From Octopus sinensis (taxonomy: Eukaryota), in the NCBI RefSeq assembly GCF_006345805.1, contig NC_043016.1, forward strand, positions 30,504,001 through 30,568,000: a stretch of DNA of 64,000 bases, given 5' to 3'. A program made the position numbers and the translations under genes. Position 1 is the first letter of the stretch. The number at the start of each line of letters is the position of its first letter. Below the pieces are notes generated by a model. It did no database searches. It was not told where the DNA came from and saw only the letters and a list, made by a program, of their open reading frames with translations. Below are positions 2,960-17,585 of this stretch, piece after piece.

Positions 2960-3780
2960 CACCATCATCATCATCATCATCATCGTTTAACGTCCGCTTT
3001 CCATGCTAGCATGGATTGGACGATTTGACTGAGGACTGGCGAACCAGATGGCTGAACCAGGTTCCAATCTGATCTGGCAGAGTTTCTACAGCTTGATGCC
3101 ATTCCTAATGCCAACCACTCTGAGAGTGTATTGGGTGCTTTTACGTGCTACCGGCACAAGGGCCAGTCAGGTGGTACTGGCAACGGCCATGCTCAAATGG
3201 TGTTTTTTACGTGCCACGTACAAAGGAGCCAGTTCAGCAGCACTGGCAACGACCTCACTCGAATGTTTTTTCACATGCCACAGGCACAAGTGCCAGTGAG
3301 GTGCAGCTGGTAATGGTCACGCTCAAATGGTGCTTTTTATGTACCACTGGCACAGGTGCCAGTCAGCTGCTCTAGCAATGACCATGCTCGGATGGTACTC
3401 TTAGCGCTCCACTAGTGCCAGTCATCGAATTTGACTTCAATTTTGCTTGCCTCAACAGGTTTTTGCAAGCAGAGTTTAGTGTCCAATGAAGGAAAAGTAT
3501 GCATAAATGGGCTTGTTACACCTCTGGTATAGGCCACAGGTTATGGTCTCACTTGGCTTGCCGGGTCTTCTCAAGTGCAGCATATTTCCAAAGGTCTCGG
3601 TCACTAGTCATTGTCTCAGTGGGGCCTTATGTTCGAAGGTCATGCTTCACCACCTCATCCCAGGTCTTCCTGGGTCTACCTCTTCCACAGGTTCCCTCAA
3701 CTGCTAGGGTGTGGCACTTTTCACACAGCTATCCTCATCCATTCTCGCCACATGACTATACCAGCACAGTCATCTCTCTC
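2960..3780 (-). mobile_element. RTE LINE 3' fragment
   Basis: (CAT)n tail followed by CGTTTAACGTCCGCTTTCCATGCTAGCATG, ~50-60 bp 3'UTR subrepeats, and a decayed RT C-terminus homologous to 5084-5368. Confidence 0.8.
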
Positions 3781-5409: not shown

Positions 5410-6700
5410 ACGGGGCGTTCAATAAATAATGCCTCTGACCCACTTGCAGTTTTTTGATCTAGCTGAAATTTTGCATGTGCAATTATTGATATCTCTATAG
5501 ATTAAGTGGCAAATTACAGCTCTGAACTAATTGTGGTTTCTGATTTACAGGTGTTTGAACTGAGTCAAGTGTGAAATGGAGCCTGTTGAGTGTCGAACAG
5601 TGATCCGGTTTTTGTATTTGAAAGGACGCACACCATGGGAGACTTTTGCTGAAATGAAAGTAACTTATGGTGATGATGCCCCATCATATGACCTTGTAAA
5701 ATGCTGGCATCATGAATTCAAACATGGTCGGAACTCTGTGGAAACAGCTCCCAGATCTGGTCACCCCACTTCTGCCATTGATGAGGTATCTGTCCGTCAA
5801 GTTGAGGCTGCCATTTTGGAAGATCGACGCATAACTATTCGCCAAATAGTCCATGAGGTCAAGATTAGTACCGGGTCTGTGGAAACTATCATTCATGACT
5901 ATTTGCATATGCAAAAGGTGTCTGCCAGATGGATTCCCAGGTTGCTCACACCTTTCCAGAAGCAAGAACGCGTTAAGTGCTCGAGGATGAATTTGGAGAT
6001 GTGCCAAGAAGATGAGTCAAACTTTTTCAAAGACTGATTACACAGGATGAAACCTGGGTCCATCACTATGATCCAGAGACCAAAGCCCAGTCAATGCAGT
6101 GGAAGCACCGTGACTCACCTCCTCTAAAGAAGGCAAGTGTGCAGCCCTCCACTGGCAAGATCATGCTCACAATCTTCTGGGACCAGGACGGAGTAATGAT
6201 GACAGATTTCCTGGCAAAGGGTACCACAATTACAGGAGCCTATAGTGCTTCACTTTTGAGGAAATTAAGAGAAGCTATCAAAATCAAGAGGCGGGGCAAG
6301 ATCAGCAAAGGCATCCTCCTCCTGCAGGACAACGCTCCGGTCAACAACTCGTGTGTCGCCAGATCAGAAGCACAGGCGTTCGGCTATGAACTCCTCCCCC
6401 ATCCCCCTACTCTCCCGACCTTGCACCCTCTGATTTTCATCTCTTCCCAGCCATGAAGTTGTTTTTGAAAGGAAAGCGTTTCCCAGATGATGCAGCCTTG
6501 ATTTCTGAAGTTACGTCGTGGTTGGAGGACCAAGCTGGGGTCTTCTACAAAAACGGTCTCCAGAGATGCATCAAACGATGAGAGAAAGGTGTAACTCTGG
6601 GTGTTTCCTATGTAGAAAAAGACTAATAACTGCGCCAAGTTTCGTTGCTCTACTGCTATGGGAAGTGGGTCAGGGGCATTACTTATTGAACGCCCTTCGT
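5410..6700 (+). mobile_element. Full-length mariner (DD34D) transposon
   Basis: TIRs ACGGGGCGTTCAATAAATAATGCCTCTGACCCACTT (5410-5445) and AAGTGGGTCAGGGGCATTACTTATTGAACGCCCTTCGT (6663-6700); ~1.3 kb long and flanked by (TA)n. Confidence 0.92.
5576..6626 (+). pseudogene. Mariner transposase, frameshifted
   Basis: HTH region and WIPRLL in 5576-6037; ITQDETWVHHYDPE, LLQDNA and YSPDLAPSDFHLF lie in shifted frames (shifts near 6030 and 6405); premature TGA near 6579. Confidence 0.9.
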
Positions 6701-6855: not shown

Positions 6856-6946
6856 AATATATATATATATATAGATATATATTATATATCATATATTCTA
6901 TATATGAATGCATGTGTACATATATACATATATGTATATATATACA

Positions 6947-7029
<83 letters not shown>

Positions 7030-7052
7030 CATATACATATATATATATGTAT
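6856..7052. repeat. (TA)n/(TACA)n low-complexity tract
   Basis: Directly visible. Confidence 0.9.
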
Positions 7053-8076
7053 GTCCGTGTCCGTTGCCAGCCTCGGCTGGCCCCCGTGCCGGTGACACGT
7101 AAAAGCACCGTCCGCTCGTGGCCGTTTGCCAGCTCTGTCTGGCAACCGTGTCGGTGGCACGTAAAAGCACCATCTGTTCGCGTCCGTTGCCAGCCTCGGC
7201 TGGCCCCCGTGCCGGTGACACGTAAAAGCACCATCCGTTCGTGGCCGTTTGCCAGCTCTGTCTGGCCCCGTGTTGGTGGCACGTAAAAGCACCATCCGTC
7301 CGTGTCCGTTGCCAGCCTCGGCTGGCCCCCGTGCCGGTGACACGTAAAAGCACCGTCCGCTCGTGGCCGTTTGCCAGCTCTGTCTGGCAACCGTGTCGGT
7401 GGCACGTAAAAGCACCATCTGTTCGCGTCCGTTGCCAGCCTCGGCTGGCCCCCGTGCCGGTGACACGTAAAAGCACCATCCGTTCGTGGCCGTTTGCCAG
7501 CTCTGTCTGGCCCCGTGTTGGTGGCACGTAAAAGCACCATCCGTCCGTGTCCGTTGCCAGCCTCGGCTGGCCCCCGGGCCGGTGACACGTAAAAGCACCG
7601 TCCGCTTGTGGCCGTTTGCCAGCTCTGTCTGGCAACCATGTCGGTGGCACATAAAAGCACCATCCGTTCGCGTCCGTTGCCAGCCTCGGCTGGCCCCCGT
7701 GCCGGTGACACGTAAAAGCACCGTCCGTTCGTGGCCGGTTGCCAGCTCTGTCTGGCCCCGTGTCGGTGGCACGTAAAAGCACCATCCGTTCGTGTCCGTT
7801 GCCAGCATCGCCTGGCCCGTGCCGGTGACACGTAAAAGCACCATCCGTTCGTGGCCGTTGGCCAGCTCTGTCTGGCACCGTGTCGGTGGCACGTAAAAAA
7901 CACCCACTACACTCGCGGAGTGGTTGGCGTTAGGAAGGGCATCCAGCCGTAGAAACACTGCCAGATCTGACTGGGCCTGACGAAGCCTTCCAGCTTCACA
8001 GACCCCAGTTGACCCGTCCAACCCATGCTAGCATGGAAAACGGACGCTAAACGATGATGATGATGATGATGATGAT
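7050..8076 (+). mobile_element. RTE LINE 3'UTR with an expanded GC-rich minisatellite
   Basis: ~61-bp units containing CACGTAAAAGCACC (7050-7900), then the RTE terminal CCATGCTAGCATGGAAAACGGACGCTAAAC and a (GAT)n tail. Confidence 0.85.
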
Positions 8077-9545: not shown

Positions 9546-11777
9546 TAGTTAGTTAGTTAGTTAGTTAGTTAATTTGGCTCAAAAGCAAATAGCAAGGCCA
9601 TGTAGGGGGACATGGAGTTAAGTACAGGGTGGTGTTCATGTAAAGAGTTCAGGCCACTTGAGGTCCAGGGAGGCTTTGAACAAAGCGGTCGTTGGCATCT
9701 TCACCATCTCATCTGGCAGCTTGTTCCACGGATCCGCAACCCGGACGGAGAAAGCTCCTCTCCTTCGATTGAGATGAAATCGTCGCAGGTAGAGCTTTTC
9801 GGAATGACCCCGCAGCCGACGCTCCGGAGCAGGAGTGAAGAACAGCTCTTTCGAGAGGTTACACTTCCCGCTTATGATGTTGTGGGCGAGAATGAGATCA
9901 CCACGGCGGCGGCGTTTTTCAAGAGAATAAAGGTCGAGCGTCCTCAGCCTTTCTTCGTAGGACAAATTTTTGAGACCATGAACCAGGCGGGTAGCCAGCC
10001 TCTGGACTCTTTCGAGGTGCTGTATGTCTTTGAGGAGATAAGGAGAAGAGGCTTGAATCCCATACTCCAATATGGGTCTCACCAGCGTGACGTAGAGTGG
10101 CAGGAATATGGCTGCTGTGAGCTCTCCGAATGACCGTCGAATCAAAAACAGAATTCCGCGCGCTTTGTTGGCAGCATGGATGCACTGGGCCGAAGGTGAA
10201 AAGGAGGAATCCACCAAGATACCCAGGTCCTTTACCTGATCGGTCCTCTCCAGCAGCAGACGACCCGGCTTGAAATCAAGTTGAGTTGCAGGAGTAGAGC
10301 CGACAGGCAGATGACAGCACTTTGACACGTTCAGACACAGGTCCCAATCGTTAGACCACTTCCAAATTTGGTGGAGGCATCGACGAAGATCCTCTATACT
10401 ACCGCAAGGAGCGACCAATTTGATATCGTCGGCAAATAGAAGGGTGTGTTGCGTGAGGTCGTCGGGCAAGTCATTTATGAAGACTAAGAACAACAAGGGC
10501 CCAAGCACTGAACCTTGAGGCACGCCACTGCTCGCACTGGAGACGTCGGACCGCGAACCATTAACTTGAACTTGGAAGGAGCGATCTGAGAGGAAGGCAC
10601 CAACCCATCGTACAATATCCGGATGGAAACTATATGCTTGAAGCTTGACAAGTAGTAGGCGGTGGTTTACCGAGTCAAAAGCTTTGGCAAAGTCCAATAA
10701 AACGATGTCAACAGCATCACTATCATCGAGGATGCGCGTCACCAATTCTTCCATTACTAGTAAGTTGGTCAAGCATGATCTCTTCGGCACGAAGCCATGT
10801 TGGGAATCAGTGATCGAGGCTGTGCTTAGGAGGTGGAGCATCATACTTTTCTTAAGGATGGTTTCGAACATCTTGCTGATTATTGATGTAAGGGAAACCG
10901 GTCGGTAGTTAAGCGGGTCTTCGCGGCTCCCTTTCTTGAAAATTGGGCAGATTATCGCTGTTCTCCAGTCTGCAGGTATAACACCCGTCGCCAATGACAT
11001 ATTGAATAGTCGTGTTAAGGGCTCGCAGATGACTGGAGCCAACGCTTTGATAACCCGTGGGTGTATGCCGTCAGGGCCGTGACCCTTGTTGACATCGAGG
11101 CCTTGAATAACACGTTTGACTTGGTCCCACGTGATGATCAATCGAAGCATTGGAGGTACCGATCTATCAAATGGAGGGGGTTCACGACCATCATCTTGTT
11201 TGAAAATAGTTGAAAAAGCCTCGGCAAATAATTGACTCTGTTGATAAGGGTCCTCAATCGATACGCCTGTTGAGTCTACCAATGTTACAATCTGGTTGTT
11301 CAAGCGGGAATTCCGCTGGACATGGGCAAAGAAGGTTTTTGGATTGCTACTGGCATTTGCCGCGATTTTGTATTCATAACTGAAGCGTTCTTTCTTTTCA
11401 ATTTTCACGGCTCGGTCTCGTTGAGTTTTGTACACCTCAAAAGCTGCAGTCGAATCCAGATTTTTGAATTCAGCCCAAGCAATATCTCTGAGTCGACGTT
11501 CTCGTTTAACCTTCTTCGTCACCCAGGCTTGTGTTTCTTCTCTTGGGAAGTCCAATGGGAACTGCCTGGTCAGTCAAACAGATTACATATGCTTTGAGGG
11601 ATGACCATAGTTCGTCAACTGAGGACAACATCATCAGGGAACGCCAGTCCAGAAGCGTGGAAGCCTCGGTTAGAATTTCAAGATTAATTGCAGAGAAGAC
11701 TCTACGTGGCAGCGAAGTAATTGTGGGCGTGGAAAAAGGTTGTTCTTTTGGACTTGCAAAAATAAAAACAAAAATAG
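9546..11777 (-). mobile_element. 5'-truncated CR1-type LINE with a (TAAC)n tail
   Basis: RT ORF, short 3'UTR, (TAAC)n tail at 9546-9570, and a possible 6-bp TSD AGAGGT (9540-9545 and 11778-11783). Confidence 0.88.
9636..11555 (-). CDS. LINE ORF2 reverse transcriptase (CR1-type); endonuclease domain missing
   Basis: Motifs GPDGIHPRV, NYRPVSLTS, QHGF, LDFAKAFDSV, GVPQGSVLGPLLF, LFADD, LVRPILEY, LERVQRLATR. The frame continues upstream to ~11760 after a frameshift near 11525, so the annotated start is not genuine. Confidence 0.9.
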   Translation of the reverse strand: MDFPREETQAWVTKKVKRERRLRDIAWAEFKNLDSTAAFEVYKTQRDRAVKIEKKERFSYEYKIAANASSNPKTFFAHVQRNSRLNNQIVTLVDSTGVSIEDPYQQSQLFAEAFSTIFKQDDGREPPPFDRSVPPMLRLIITWDQVKRVIQGLDVNKGHGPDGIHPRVIKALAPVICEPLTRLFNMSLATGVIPADWRTAIICPIFKKGSREDPLNYRPVSLTSIISKMFETILKKSMMLHLLSTASITDSQHGFVPKRSCLTNLLVMEELVTRILDDSDAVDIVLLDFAKAFDSVNHRLLLVKLQAYSFHPDIVRWVGAFLSDRSFQVQVNGSRSDVSSASSGVPQGSVLGPLLFLVFINDLPDDLTQHTLLFADDIKLVAPCGSIEDLRRCLHQIWKWSNDWDLCLNVSKCCHLPVGSTPATQLDFKPGRLLLERTDQVKDLGILVDSSFSPSAQCIHAANKARGILFLIRRSFGELTAAIFLPLYVTLVRPILEYGIQASSPYLLKDIQHLERVQRLATRLVHGLKNLSYEERLRTLDLYSLEKRRRRGDLILAHNIISGKCNLSKELFFTPAPERRLRGHSEKLYLRRFHLNRRRGAFSVRVADPWNKLPDEMVKMPTTALFKASLDLKWPELFT

Positions 11778-12845: not shown

Positions 12846-13053
12846 TGAGGGGGTGCTGAAAAAGTTCCTGGCTTTTGGTAAAAGAAAATACAGGAGGATC
12901 AGTTAGTTATGATTTTATATAGCATATTCCCTTCTCGTCTCATATTCACACACTTCAGTTTTTCTAAGCCTTGTAAAAGAACTTGGAAAGTTGGGCCTCC
13001 AGCCAGGTCCTTCACGATACCCTTAAAGCCAGGAACTTTTCAGCATCCCTTCA
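12846..13053. mobile_element. Mariner-type MITE
   Basis: TIRs GAGGGGGTGCTGAAAAAGTTCCTGGCTT and AAGCCAGGAACTTTTCAGCATCCCTTC; a second copy lies at 15850-16064. Confidence 0.8.
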
Positions 13054-13254
13054 TATATATATATATATATATATAAATAATAAATATTAGGGAATAAATC
13101 CAAATTTACAGGGAAAAAATCAGATTTAGGATTAAATCCAATTTTATAGTAAAATATTATAAAATATTATTAGAGACAAAACCACTATTTTGCAAAACAA
13201 ACAAGGAAAGACTTAATCAATACATAAAATTTTAATAAATAGTCAAAAAAACCG

Positions 13255-13296
13255 CCACTACAATTGTTCTTGTCTTGATCGACAATCTTCAGGTGG
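13255..13296 (-). ncRNA. Hammerhead ribozyme copy with one core A missing (GAAC)
   Basis: Minus strand reads CCAC-CUGAAGA-UUGUCGAUCAAGACAA-GAAC-AAUU-GUA-GUGG. Confidence 0.6.
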
Positions 13297-15400
13297 ACTT
13301 CCAATCTAAAATATCAATATTTAAAATATAAAAATAATAATTTTAAAATAATTAAAGTATGAATGAAAAAATATAAATATATAATCCATATATAACCTAT
13401 ATATAATCCATATATAATCAATATATACACATATATAAACTAAAATAAACCTATCAACAATTAAATATAAAATATAAAATATAAAATATAAAATATAAAA
13501 CAAAACAAAAAAATAATAATAATATATAATAAACTATATATACACCCATACACATATACCTAATTATATATAACCATATCTAACTACATACACTAAATCA
13601 CACACCTATATATATATCCCTATACATACACATAAAAACGTCTAGGCAACTATAAATAAATAAAATAGCTAAATACTTCAAACAATACTTATTCATACTC
13701 CCACACACACACACATACAATCACATTCACGCTCTAGAAAACGGACATCACTTAAAATTATGAACGGGAAATGGAATAAATGGAATTAAAAATTATATTC
13801 ACTTGGTAAAACGAACACTACTTAAAAATTATGAATGAAACAATGCAATAAAACAACAGACATCGCAAATAGACACAAATTACTACGAATTCCCTAACAA
13901 ACCTACCATGATAAACCAAACTCATAAAAACATATAATGATAAAATCTCCCTTTACTAAACTCTATAACGTACCTATATAGCAATCCCCCTAACCTAAAC
14001 ATTCACACACAAATACACACACGTAAACCACACACCCACGACATATACAAATACCCACACCACTTACACATACCTATACATACATATAAACCTCAACATA
14101 TACTCCAAAACCCACTCAACCCCACACAGACAAATAAACACAAAATTATGAATGGATTCTTTTATAAAACTACCATGATAAGCTAAAACTCACAAAACAT
14201 AAATGATAAAACCTCCCTTTACTAAACACTATAACATACTTATATAGCAATTCGTTTCCAGAGCGGTTATACTTTTTATACATATGTTAAGTTCCTTGGT
14301 AAAGTAATTTTGTTTGGTGTATATGTTGAGGCTTATATGTACTTGTGGGTGTGTGTGAGTGGGGTGGGTGTTTGTATTTGTTATGGGTGTGGTTTAAGTG
14401 TGTGTATTTGTGTGTGAATGTATAGGTTAAAGGGATTGCTATATAAGTATGTTATAGTGTTTAGTAAAGGGAGGTTTTATCATTTATGTTTTGTGAGTTT
14501 TAGCTTATCATGGTAGTTTTATAAAAGAATCCATTCATATTTTTGTGTTTATTGTCTGTGTGGGGTTGAGTGGGTTTTTGGAGTATATGTTGAGGTTTAT
14601 ATGTATGTATAGGTATGTGTAAGTGGTGTGGGTATTTGTATATGTCGTGGGTGTGTGGTTTACGTGTGTGTATTTGTGTGTGAATGTTTAGGTTAGGGGG
14701 ATTGCTATATAGGTATGTTATAGAGTTTAGTAAAGGGAGATTTTATCATATATGTTTTTATGAGTTTTGGTTTATCATGGTAGGTTTGTTAGGGAATTCG
14801 TAGTAATTTGTGTCTATTTGCGATGTCTGTTGTTTTATTGCATTGTTTCATTCATAATTTTTAAGTAGTGTTCGTTTTACCAAGTGAATATAATTTTAAT
14901 TCCATTTATTCCATTTCTCCGTTCATAATTTTAAGTGATGTCCGTTTTCTAGAGCGTGAATGTGGGTTGTATGTGTGTGTGTGTGGGAGTATGAATAAGT
15001 ATTGTGTTGAAGTATTTAGCTATTTTATTTATTTATAGTTGCCTAGACTTTTTATGTGTATGTATAGGGATATATATATAGGTGTGTGATTTAGTGTATG
15101 TAGTTAGATATGGTTATATATAATTAGGTATATGTGTATGGGTGTATATATAGTTTATTATTATATTATTATTATTTTTTTGTTTGTTTTATATTTTATA
15201 TTTTATATTTTATATTTTATATTTAATTGTTGATAGGTTTATTTTAGTTTATATTAGTTTATATATTGTTTATATATTGATTATATATGGATTATATATA
15301 GGTTATATATGGATTATATATTTATATTTTTTCATTCATACTTTAATTATTTTAAAATTATTATTTTATATTTTAAATATTGATATTTTAGATTGGAAGT

Positions 15401-15443
15401 CCACCTGAAGATTGTCGATCAAGACAAGAAACAATTGTAGTGG
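15401..15443 (+). ncRNA. Minimal type I hammerhead ribozyme
   Basis: CCAC-CUGAAGA-UUGUC(GAUCAA)GACAA-GAAAC-AAUU-GUA^GUGG; stem I 4 bp, stem II 5 bp, palindromic stem III ACAAUUGU; predicted cut at 15439/15440. Confidence 0.8.
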
Positions 15444-15528
15444 CGGTTTTTTTGACTATTTATTAAAATTTTATGTATTGATTAAGTCTTTCCTTTTGTT
15501 TTGCAAAATAGTGGTTTTGTCTCTAATA

Positions 15529-15566
<38 letters not shown>

Positions 15567-15570
15567 TATG

Positions 15571-15849: not shown

Positions 15850-16064
15850 CAAGGGGGTGCTGAAAAGTTCCTGGCTTTGGGTTAAAGAAAATACAGGAGG
15901 AGGATCAGTTAACTATGATTTTATTCAAACATATTCACTTCTCAGATTCACACACTTATTGCAAATCAGTTTTTCTAAGCCCTTTAAAAGAACTCAGAAG
16001 GCTGGGCCTCCAACCAGACCTTTCATGATAACCTTAAAGCCAAAAACTTTTCAGCAGCCCCTTG
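15850..16064. mobile_element. Mariner-type MITE (same family as 12846-13053)
   Basis: TA|CAAGGGGGTGCTGAAAAGTT ... AACTTTTCAGCAGCCCCTTG|TA. Confidence 0.8.
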
Positions 16065-16602
16065 TATGATAGGTAAAAAAAAGGTGAGGATTAAAGGTTG
16101 AAAGTGGGAGAAGAACGAGAGATGGATACCAACAAGAGAAGGGATCAAAATAATAATGAAGAATGTATGTCAATAGGAAGTTGCTTGGTGGAAGGGACAC
16201 AGTTATCTTGTTGAGGGGAAAATGGGCAGAAAAGCATCTGGTATAGACTTGGTAGGGACCCAATTATGAACGTAGAGTATGCATACATTATGCTTTGAGA
16301 GCCTAATTCACAGAATGGTAATTTAGTTGGATGGATCTTCTCAAGGACTGCATCTTGCCTATCATCTTGGTCCTTAGTCATCATGTCCGTGATGTTCAAC
16401 ATCCTCCTGAGTTCAGCCTTCACAACATCATTTCCACATCTTCCTGGATTTTCCTTGAATGCAGGTTGTGCTACTGTAAGATACTAATCGATCAATGCTT
16501 CTTTATTGTCAACCCCAAGTACATCACATGCCCAAAATGCACAATTCTGATTCTCCTCAGTTCTGATGCTCAGTTTTTCCCGCAACACTGGGCATAATAT
16601 CA

Positions 16603-17585
16603 CTGCTGCCACTGCCACTACCACCACCACTGCCGCTGCCGCTGCAACCACTGCCACTGCTGCCACCACCACTACAACTGCCACTGCCGCCACCACCACT
16701 GCCGCTGCAACCACTGCCACTGCCACTACCACCACCACTGCCACTGCAACCACTGCCACTGCTGCCACTGCCACTACCACCACCACTGCCACTACCACCA
16801 CCACTGTCACCACCACCACTGCCACTGCAACCACTGCCACTGCTGCCACTGCCACTACCACCACCACTGCCACTGCAACCACTGCCACTGCTGCCACTGC
16901 CACTACCACCACCACTGCCACTACCACCACCACTGTCACCACCACCACTGCCACTGCAACCACTGCCACTGCTGCCACTGCCACTACCACCACCACTGCC
17001 ACTGCAACCACTGCCACTGCTGCTGCCACTGCCACTACCACCACCACTGCCACTACCACCACCACTGTCACCACCACCACTGCCACTGCAACCACTGCCA
17101 CTGCTGCCACTGCCACTACCACCACCACTGCCACTGCAACCACTGCCACTGCTGCCACTGCCACTACCACCACCACTGCCACTACCACCACCACTGTCAC
17201 CACCACCACTGCCACTGCAACCACTGCCACTGCTGCCACTGCCACTACCACCACCACTGCCACTGCAACCACTGCCACTGCTGCCACTGCCACTACCACT
17301 GCCACTGCTGCCACCACCACTGCAACTGCCACTGCTGCCTCTGCCTCAGTCACTGCCACCACCACCACCACCACCACCACTACAACTGCCACTGTTGTCA
17401 TTACCACCACTGCTGCCTCTGCCACTGCCACTGCCACAACCACCATCACCACCATCGTCCTTACCACCACTGCTGCCACAACCACTACCAGCAACCATCA
17501 CTACCACCTCACCACTGCCAGAATCACCACCAATGCTGTCATTGCCACCATCATCAGAAACATCACCACCACCACCACCACACAC
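16603..17585. repeat. ACC/ACT/GCC triplet-derived array with a ~129-bp higher-order period
   Basis: The marker CCACTGTCACC recurs at ~16801, 16930, 17062 and 17191. Confidence 0.9.

What the first reader, a model, noticed from the sequence alone, without database searches (positions are those of the whole stretch)
13158..15538. 2.4-kb foldback with a minimal hammerhead ribozyme near each outer end
Seen: ~1.1-kb arms in inverted orientation, strong A/C versus T/G strand asymmetry, a ~265-bp internal subrepeat, (TA)n flanks and no recognisable protein coding. The + arm carries an intact type I hammerhead (15401-15443) with a palindromic stem III, ACAAUUGU; the - arm copy (13255-13296) lacks one A in GAAA. 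Known: Penelope-like elements carry minimal hammerheads with palindromic stem III in their pLTRs, and they often insert with inverted pLTRs. Inference: this is a non-autonomous PLE derivative. A read-through transcript from either strand would form ~1 kb of dsRNA (a possible ADAR or siRNA substrate in an editing-rich cephalopod) with a cleavage site near its 3' end.
Basis: partly seen in the sequence, partly recalled or inferred. Interest (0 to 1): 0.72.

Follow-up and report, generated by a model that had tools for sequence, protein, structure and literature searches.

The report
Head-to-head intron-retaining Penelope retrocopies
The 2.4-kb hairpin is two broken-off tail ends of a common Penelope-type jumping gene joined head to head, an already described kind of insertion that is likely inert here, but its sister copies come with and without a predicted intron in a pattern that likely shows how these elements copy one RNA twice and why long copies keep their introns.

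Summary
The foldback and hammerhead are real. The arms are two 5'-truncated copies (97% identical) of the 3' end of a 6.3-kb Hydra-clade Penelope-like element that encodes RT plus GIY-YIG elsewhere in this genome. They abut with a 1-nt overlap; the junction occurs once in the genome, so this is a one-off insertion, not a non-autonomous family. One end carries an 80-nt tail, as in nearly all sister pairs examined. Most of each arm is a retained 1.8-kb GT-AG intron ending 9 nt before the hammerhead. Genome-wide, 1,559 copies lack that intron exactly and 1,185 keep its acceptor. Intronless copies stop at one nucleotide, 143 of 275 with an extra G (likely the cap). In 57 sampled inverted pairs both arms always share splice state (28 mixed expected). 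This favours a sense RNA copied twice from two start sites. In a read-through transcript the hammerhead is predicted to be buried in the duplex, and copies show no pile-up at its cut site. The missing A is likely a sequence error or private mutation. No RNA or read data were obtained. The scan noted the intronless copies before, in this genome and others (unreviewed).

The parts
13053..13075 (.). (TA)n target, left side
   Evidence: sequence
13076..14251 (-). Left arm: 5'-truncated copy of the element's 3' end, with the long end (matches L032 6896-8075, 96.9%)
13076..13157 (-). About 80-nt tail present on this arm only; it is also the 5' leader of a downstream unit in tandem copies
13255..13296 (-). 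Hammerhead copy lacking one A of GAAA; variant seen 24 times in the genome against 853 intact
13306..14251 (-). 3' part of the retained intron (inferred), left arm
14251..14251 (.). Head-to-head junction, 1-nt overlap, unique in the genome
14251..15538 (+). Right arm: 5'-truncated copy with the short end (matches L032 6716-7997, 96.8%); reaches 186 nt further 5' than the left arm
14251..15391 (+). 3' part of the retained 1,817-nt intron (inferred), T/G-rich, ending in the acceptor AG at 15390-15391
14313..14818 (+). Two ~245-nt copies of the intron-internal subrepeat (spacing about 265), inherited from the full element
15392..15538 (+). Exon 2 of the element's leader (inferred): hammerhead plus pLTR up to the short end
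15401..15443 (+). Minimal type I hammerhead, palindromic stem III, predicted cut after 15439
15539..15569 (.). (TA)n target, right side

Best explanation
The foldback is two 5'-truncated copies of the 3' end of a 6.3-kb Hydra-clade Penelope-like retrotransposon joined head to head in a (TA)n tract, likely made in one event by copying one unspliced sense RNA twice, and likely inert at this site. Shown: colinearity with the coding element, unique junction, one long and one short end, exact absence of a GT-AG stretch in 1,559 sister copies, concordant splice state of paired arms. Inferred: the element's nuclease cuts both target strands; each 3' end primes reverse transcription inside the pLTR, one at the short-end site and one about 80 nt further 3' (the tail); both polymerases run towards the 5' end, the trailing one displacing the first cDNA; both stop early and the two cDNA ends join over 1-3 nt of microhomology. 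When priming uses the pLTR at the far 3' end of a long transcript, whose intron copy is usually left unspliced, long intron-retaining arms like these result; when it uses the identical pLTR in the capped, spliced 5' leader, only 170-250-nt arms result, which cannot carry the ORF. The hammerhead travels as cargo: it is predicted to need a second sense copy to fold and to be masked in this foldback.
For: Full units with ORF in L031 and L032; 136 RT matches in the genome, the top 20 at 95-100% identity. Junction 1 match. Two fixed 3' ends about 80 nt apart; one long plus one short end in 31 of 33 intronless pairs, 2 with an arm unclassified, and in the window plus 15 intron-retaining pairs read. 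Intron 1,817 nt, GT to AG, acceptor kept at the same distance in two diverged subfamilies; a second donor 4 nt downstream is also used. 1,559 intronless junctions against 1,185 retained acceptors. 275 intronless copies reach the putative +1 A, 16 extend 7 nt or more beyond it (first donor only), 143 have G before it whereas intron-retaining copies have C in 99 of the first 100 listed of 571. 57 head-to-head pairs on contig C1: 0 mixed spliced/unspliced (28.0 expected, minimum 14 in 20,000 shuffles) and 0 mixed donor (7.1 expected). Neither arm is a subset of the other in the window and in 9 of 29 classed intronless pairs. Two internal RT start sites that define the tail, and extension of both target strands, were shown in vitro for another PLE (PMC11167929, main text read). 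Hammerhead paired with the opposite arm in both strand folds; dimer with swapped stem III is the cofold minimum, -22.0 kcal/mol. 2,038 copies read through the cut site; truncations at it 13 against 12, 6, 8 and 5 at four neighbouring positions.
Against: No RNA evidence: splicing, start site and cap are inferred from genomic copies. The G is confounded by junction microhomology: in most of the 17 G cases among 24 sampled copies it also fits the opposite arm. Concordance could come from two RNAs of the same isoform held by one protein dimer; only 4 pairs use the second donor, two of them a local duplicate and one set by a source mutation. 16 intronless copies run past +1 (up to 380 nt in L153), so the 3' intron copy is sometimes spliced. 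In 16 of 29 pairs the tail arm is also the 5'-longer arm and 4 tie, which fold-back copying would equally explain. An antisense template for the long class is not excluded directly. L079 has three arms (long, long, short) and L081's minus arm runs into a further copy. Pfam found no RT or GIY-YIG family in the element's own protein; no fully intact ORF copy was seen among the 40 long loci fetched. Strand displacement by an RT without RNase H is recalled, not tested.
Confidence: 0.72

Rival explanations
1. Same element and insertion, but the second arm was made by fold-back self-priming on the first strand or from an antisense RNA, as proposed for rotifer PLEs, which would also explain the retained intron.
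For: Gives identical splice state in both arms automatically and 1-3 nt junction overlaps. Proposed in PMC3846280 (Discussion read).
Against: A copied arm should be a subset of its template, but here the right arm has 186 extra 5' nt and the left arm 80 extra 3' nt; 9 of 29 intronless pairs are alike. Intronless copies need a sense, spliced template and show the same ends and geometry.
Confidence: 0.17
2. The foldback is a self-propagating non-autonomous PLE derivative.
For: No coding sequence; both ends intact; non-autonomous PLE derivatives exist (PMC8557442 passages; bioRxiv 10.64898/2026.07.22.740005 passages).
Against: Junction unique; long sister pairs each have different junctions; arms colinear with the coding element.
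Confidence: 0.04
3. The locus is transcribed and acts as a dsRNA (ADAR or siRNA substrate) with an active ribozyme end.
For: Predicted duplex is very stable, -1,739 kcal/mol, 93% paired.
Against: Hammerhead sequestered in the duplex; no host gene recognised among the window's open frames of 100 aa or more; the arms lack the element's putative start site.
Confidence: 0.04
4. The inversion is an assembly or chimeric long-read artefact.
Against: Different flanks on the two sides, asymmetric junction, one long and one short end obeying the family rule; a mirrored read would repeat the same end and flank.
Confidence: 0.03

Closest known systems
Hydra clade of C-terminal EN+ Penelope-like elements (Craig et al. 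2021, PMC8557442; includes Hydra-1_Obim)
   Same: RT followed by C-terminal GIY-YIG, DKT motif, CxCX5C linker, no CCHH, CxxC and CxH around E and N, canonical hammerhead, (TA)n targets.
   Different: Unit 6.3 kb against generally under 3 kb; KWK for RWK; Asn-rich insert; hammerhead sequence and length differ from Hydra-1_Obim (2,507 bp; supplement rows), so a separate family.
Inverted 5'-truncated PLE insertion with one-sided tail (PMC8557442 Fig. 2 legend; Pen2a_Av in PMC3846280)
   Same: Head-to-head inverted copies, tail on one end only.
   Different: Tail about 80 nt rather than 30-40; both copies truncated within the intron; target duplication not readable in (TA)n.
Drosophila virilis Penelope leader (PMC2377424 passages; PMC4209133)
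   Same: Start site in the pLTR region, short first exon, 5' UTR intron ending next to hammerhead helix I, intron retained in coding copies.
   Different: Intron 1,817 nt against 75 nt; here intronless genomic copies outnumber retained ones; I saw no report of such copies in the passages read.
Poseidon PAc of Anolis, in vitro mechanism (PMC11167929)
   Same: Two RT start sites defining the tail, both target strands extended, hammerhead not needed for insertion.
   Different: There the sites lie inside the ORF; here both inferred sites lie in the 5' UTR; inverted joints and splicing were not addressed there.
Minimal dimer-type hammerheads of metazoan PLEs (PMC4209133)
   Same: Short stem I, palindromic stem III, predicted dimer.
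   Different: Stem II 5 bp; activity of this sequence untested.

Membership tests
EN+ Penelope-like element | RT plus GIY-YIG in one reading unit linked to this sequence | tested here: met
   ORF upstream of the same 3' end in L031, L032, L051; YRDD, PMG, YIG, R..H, E, N conserved in 39-40 of 40 homologues at the key columns; 3 of 41 aligned proteins hit Pfam GIY-YIG; atlas neighbours carry GIY-YIG and RVT_1 in minorities of members. No Pfam or PDB hit for the protein itself.
EN+ Penelope-like element | pLTRs from tandem or inverted truncated copies, one-sided tail | tested here: met
EN+ Penelope-like element | Hammerhead in the pLTR region | tested here: met
EN+ Penelope-like element | RT phylogeny with reference PLEs | not tested
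   Reference proteins were only viewed in the supplement; similarity judged by eye.
Hydra clade | DKT motif | tested here: met
   SDKTRN; D and K in 40 of 40 homologues; feature
Hydra clade | RWK motif, no GxKF/Y | tested here: inconclusive
   KWK in this family, R in 40 of 40 homologues at that column; GxKF/Y not seen by eye in the N-terminus
Hydra clade | CxCX5C linker | tested here: met
Hydra clade | CCHH absent; CxxC and CxH beside E and N | tested here: met
   One C only between the GIY and YIG equivalents; CYLC before E; CRH after N in L032 (CRN in L051)
Hydra clade | (TA)n insertion preference | tested here: met
   Ends listed run into TA-rich repeats except internal pLTRs
Hydra clade | Generally under 3 kb (typical, not diagnostic) | tested here: not met
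   6.3-kb unit
Minimal type I hammerhead | Core CUGANGA, GAAA, UH with stems I-II and palindromic stem III conserved | tested here: met
   N varies A/C/U, loop 2 varies in length and sequence, stem III variant ACGAUUGU still self-pairs (-5.8 against -6.4); only one compensatory change seen, at the first stem II pair
Minimal type I hammerhead | Self-cleavage | not testable with these tools
   No genomic pile-up at the cut site
Non-autonomous PLE family or retrozyme | Repeated as a unit, or tandem hammerhead monomers | tested here: not met
   Unique junction; motifs divergent, not tandem

The most novel reading that the evidence does not exclude
This family is a genomic fossil record of the Penelope cycle: one sense RNA is copied twice from two start sites into both strands of a cut, and intron retention is a sorting effect, because the spliced capped leader yields only tiny non-coding foldbacks while full-length copies must start from the usually unspliced 3' pLTR. 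This would answer why PLEs keep introns and remove the need for an antisense template.
Probability: 0.55. Interest if true: 0.7.

Novelty: new member of a known kind. Interest (0 to 1): 0.45.

Why it matters
The locus itself is ordinary. The family matters because the literature read here calls the meaning of PLE intron retention unknown (PMC8557442, passage) and leaves sense versus antisense template open (PMC3846280). Thousands of young copies in two splice states, with a mappable start site and two fixed ends, make both questions testable by counting and by one reporter assay. It also warns annotators that short hammerhead 'MITEs' and long foldbacks in this genome are by-products of one element.

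Tried and rejected
Rfam gave no hammerhead, only simple-repeat matches. Fold z-scores of the motif were not significant. Pfam and PDB sequence searches did not name the element's protein. A structure prediction had not finished at the last collection, so no fold search was run. The 859-aa frame in L051 first looked intact but is 5'-truncated and fused to an inverted copy. Idea that copies start at the ribozyme cut site (prompted by L038): rejected, no excess over neighbours. Idea that the missing A marks a subfamily: rejected; it occurs in both intronless and intron-retaining copies, and the partner arm has intact GAAA in the window and in 5 of 5 other inverted pairs with both arms in view among the 18 of 24 carriers fetched. 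Literature searches for intronless genomic PLE copies listed nothing on it; the library lacks most subscription papers, including Arkhipova 2003, and bioRxiv supplements are closed, so absence from print is not established. Repbase could not be checked.

Full report
OBSERVATION. The foldback is in the sequence as described: 97.0% over 1123 columns between 13154-14257 and 14429-15543, strong strand skew, a subrepeat at about 265 bp spacing, (TA)n on both sides, no coding frame. The hammerhead at 15401-15443 has the stated anatomy and the left copy lacks one A. Alone the motif is not significant; in the genome a pattern for it has 3,853 exact matches and the reversed control none.

WHAT IT IS. 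A search of the own genome with the hammerhead region gave 641 candidates, 40 scored. Of 20 long stretches fetched around top matches, L031 and L032 hold a whole unit: pLTR, a frameshifted ORF, about 3.5 kb of non-coding sequence, hammerhead, pLTR, 6.3 kb in all. The window's right arm 14251-15543 matches L032 6716-7997 and the left arm 13076-14257 matches 6896-8075, both 97%. The arms meet at 14251 with a 1-nt overlap; the 'loop' is the 186 nt by which the right arm reaches further 5'. The junction has one match in the genome. The protein has the motifs given for the Hydra clade in section 11 of PMC8557442: DKT, CxCX5C, no CCHH, CxxC and CxH around E and N, with KWK for RWK. It is not Hydra-1_Obim, whose length and hammerhead differ. 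Pfam and PDB did not name the protein, so RT and nuclease calls rest on motifs, 3 of 41 homologues hitting GIY-YIG and atlas neighbours. None of the 40 long loci showed a complete intact ORF.

ENDS. All classed copies end at one of two sites about 80 nt apart. The window has one of each; so do 15 other intron-retaining pairs by my reading, and 31 of 33 intronless pairs (2 unclassified). Exceptions: L079 (three arms) and L081 (one arm continues into another copy). This is the one-sided tail of PLEs, longer than the usual 30-40 bp, and PMC11167929 ties the tail to two RT start sites.

THE INTRON. Short inverted pairs join L032 6027 directly to 7845. The skipped 1,817 nt begin GTAAGT and end TTTTAG, 9 nt before hammerhead stem I; a second GT 4 nt downstream is also used, and two diverged subfamilies keep the acceptor at the same distance. 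Exact-pattern counts, all lower bounds: 1,559 intronless junctions, 1,185 retained acceptors (a stricter pattern gave 453). So 1,141 of the right arm's 1,288 nt are intron, which accounts for the T/G skew and the subrepeat. The layout parallels D. virilis Penelope (PMC2377424 passages; PMC4209133).

START SITE. 275 intronless copies reach an A 23 nt before the donor; 16 extend 7 nt or more beyond it (first donor only); 143 have G before it, where intron-retaining copies have C in 99 of the first 100 listed (571 in all; the pattern excluded A). The context resembles an initiator and an extra G is the known trace of a copied cap (both recalled). Caveat: the G often also fits the opposite arm; it looks non-templated in L149 and L170.

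ONE TEMPLATE, TWO COPIES. Using the 98 intronless and 100 retained sites listed for contig C1 up to 177 Mb, 57 adjacent head-to-head pairs within 15 kb were found: 33 intronless, 24 retained, none mixed (28.0 expected by shuffling), none mixing donors (7.1 expected, but only 4 second-donor pairs, not all independent). The tail arm is 5'-longer in 16, the short-end arm in 9, tie in 4 of 29. Where the short-end arm is 5'-longer, as in this window, neither arm can be a copy of the other, so both likely came from RNA.

HAMMERHEAD. Monomer stem III costs energy (-5.4 against -6.2 without it); the cofold minimum is the swapped dimer at -22.0; the common variant ACGAUUGU still self-pairs. In the folded read-through RNA of either strand the motif pairs with the opposite arm. 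2,038 copies read through the cut site and truncations there (13) do not exceed neighbours (12, 6, 8, 5), in line with uncleaved templates reported in PMC11167929. The missing A occurs 24 times against 853 intact, scattered, with intact partners where seen; with 14 of 17 arm indels being single bases an assembly error or private mutation is likely.

MECHANISM AND RIVALS. See Best explanation. Shown: structure, counts, concordance. Inferred: splicing, cap, double priming, displacement, why the 3' intron copy mostly stays unspliced. The main rival is fold-back or antisense templating (PMC3846280 Discussion), which the intronless class does not need and non-nested arms disfavour, but which is not excluded for long copies.

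NOVELTY. The insertion type, clade and ribozyme type are published. Intronless, cap-marked retrocopies with concordant arms were not found in my searches, which cover only part of the literature. I noted the intron before the look-up that showed the scan had recorded the same idea, unreviewed, in this genome and others; look-ups near the locus and by sequence were empty.

PAPERS SEEN. PMC8557442: abstract, sections 3 and 11, passages, supplement rows and passages. PMC11167929: parts 1-2 of 4 and passages. PMC4209133: parts 1-2 of 4. PMC3846280: passages and Discussion. PMC2377424: passages. bioRxiv 10.64898/2026.07.22.740005: passages only. Arkhipova 2003: reference-list entry only.

VERDICT. 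Observation confirmed; interpretation partly supported; new member of a known kind; interest 0.45, carried by the family-level evidence rather than by this locus.

Noticed in passing
window 9636-11573 (-): 645-aa open frame with an RVT_1 domain (E 8e-32), a non-LTR retrotransposon fragment.
   Followed up: partly
window 5564-6456 (+): Mariner-type transposase split over two frames (HTH_48, Transposase_1).
   Followed up: partly
window 12848-13049 and 15852-16060: Two 80%-identical copies of a ~210-bp repeat with inverted-looking ends flank the locus in direct orientation; likely MITE copies unrelated to the insertion.
   Followed up: no
L032 4804-5245: The full element's 3' region holds an old inverted copy (71-78%) of its intron repeats, perhaps a fixed ancient head-to-head junction.
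   Followed up: no
L032 about 3360-3660: Asparagine-rich insert between RT and nuclease, like those described for rotifer PLEs in PMC3846280.
   Followed up: no
L031 4744-5460, L032 5160-5761: A GC-richer part of the 3' region is stop-free for 135-239 aa on both strands in several copies; no Pfam match.
   Followed up: partly
L109: Both arms join exon 1 to a point 9 nt upstream of the usual acceptor, a shared odd junction supporting a common template.
   Followed up: no
G000:C1 78171084-78181468 and similar: Some copies carry the start-site and donor module two or three times, 0.8-1.0 kb apart.
   Followed up: no
L048 4081-6901 (+) and L033 894 (+): Another PLE-like RT/nuclease frame with a different Cys linker, and a different hammerhead with a 6-nt palindromic stem III.
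   Followed up: no
window 16600-17500: GC-rich trinucleotide-based array with a 129-bp higher-order unit at 97% identity.
   Followed up: no
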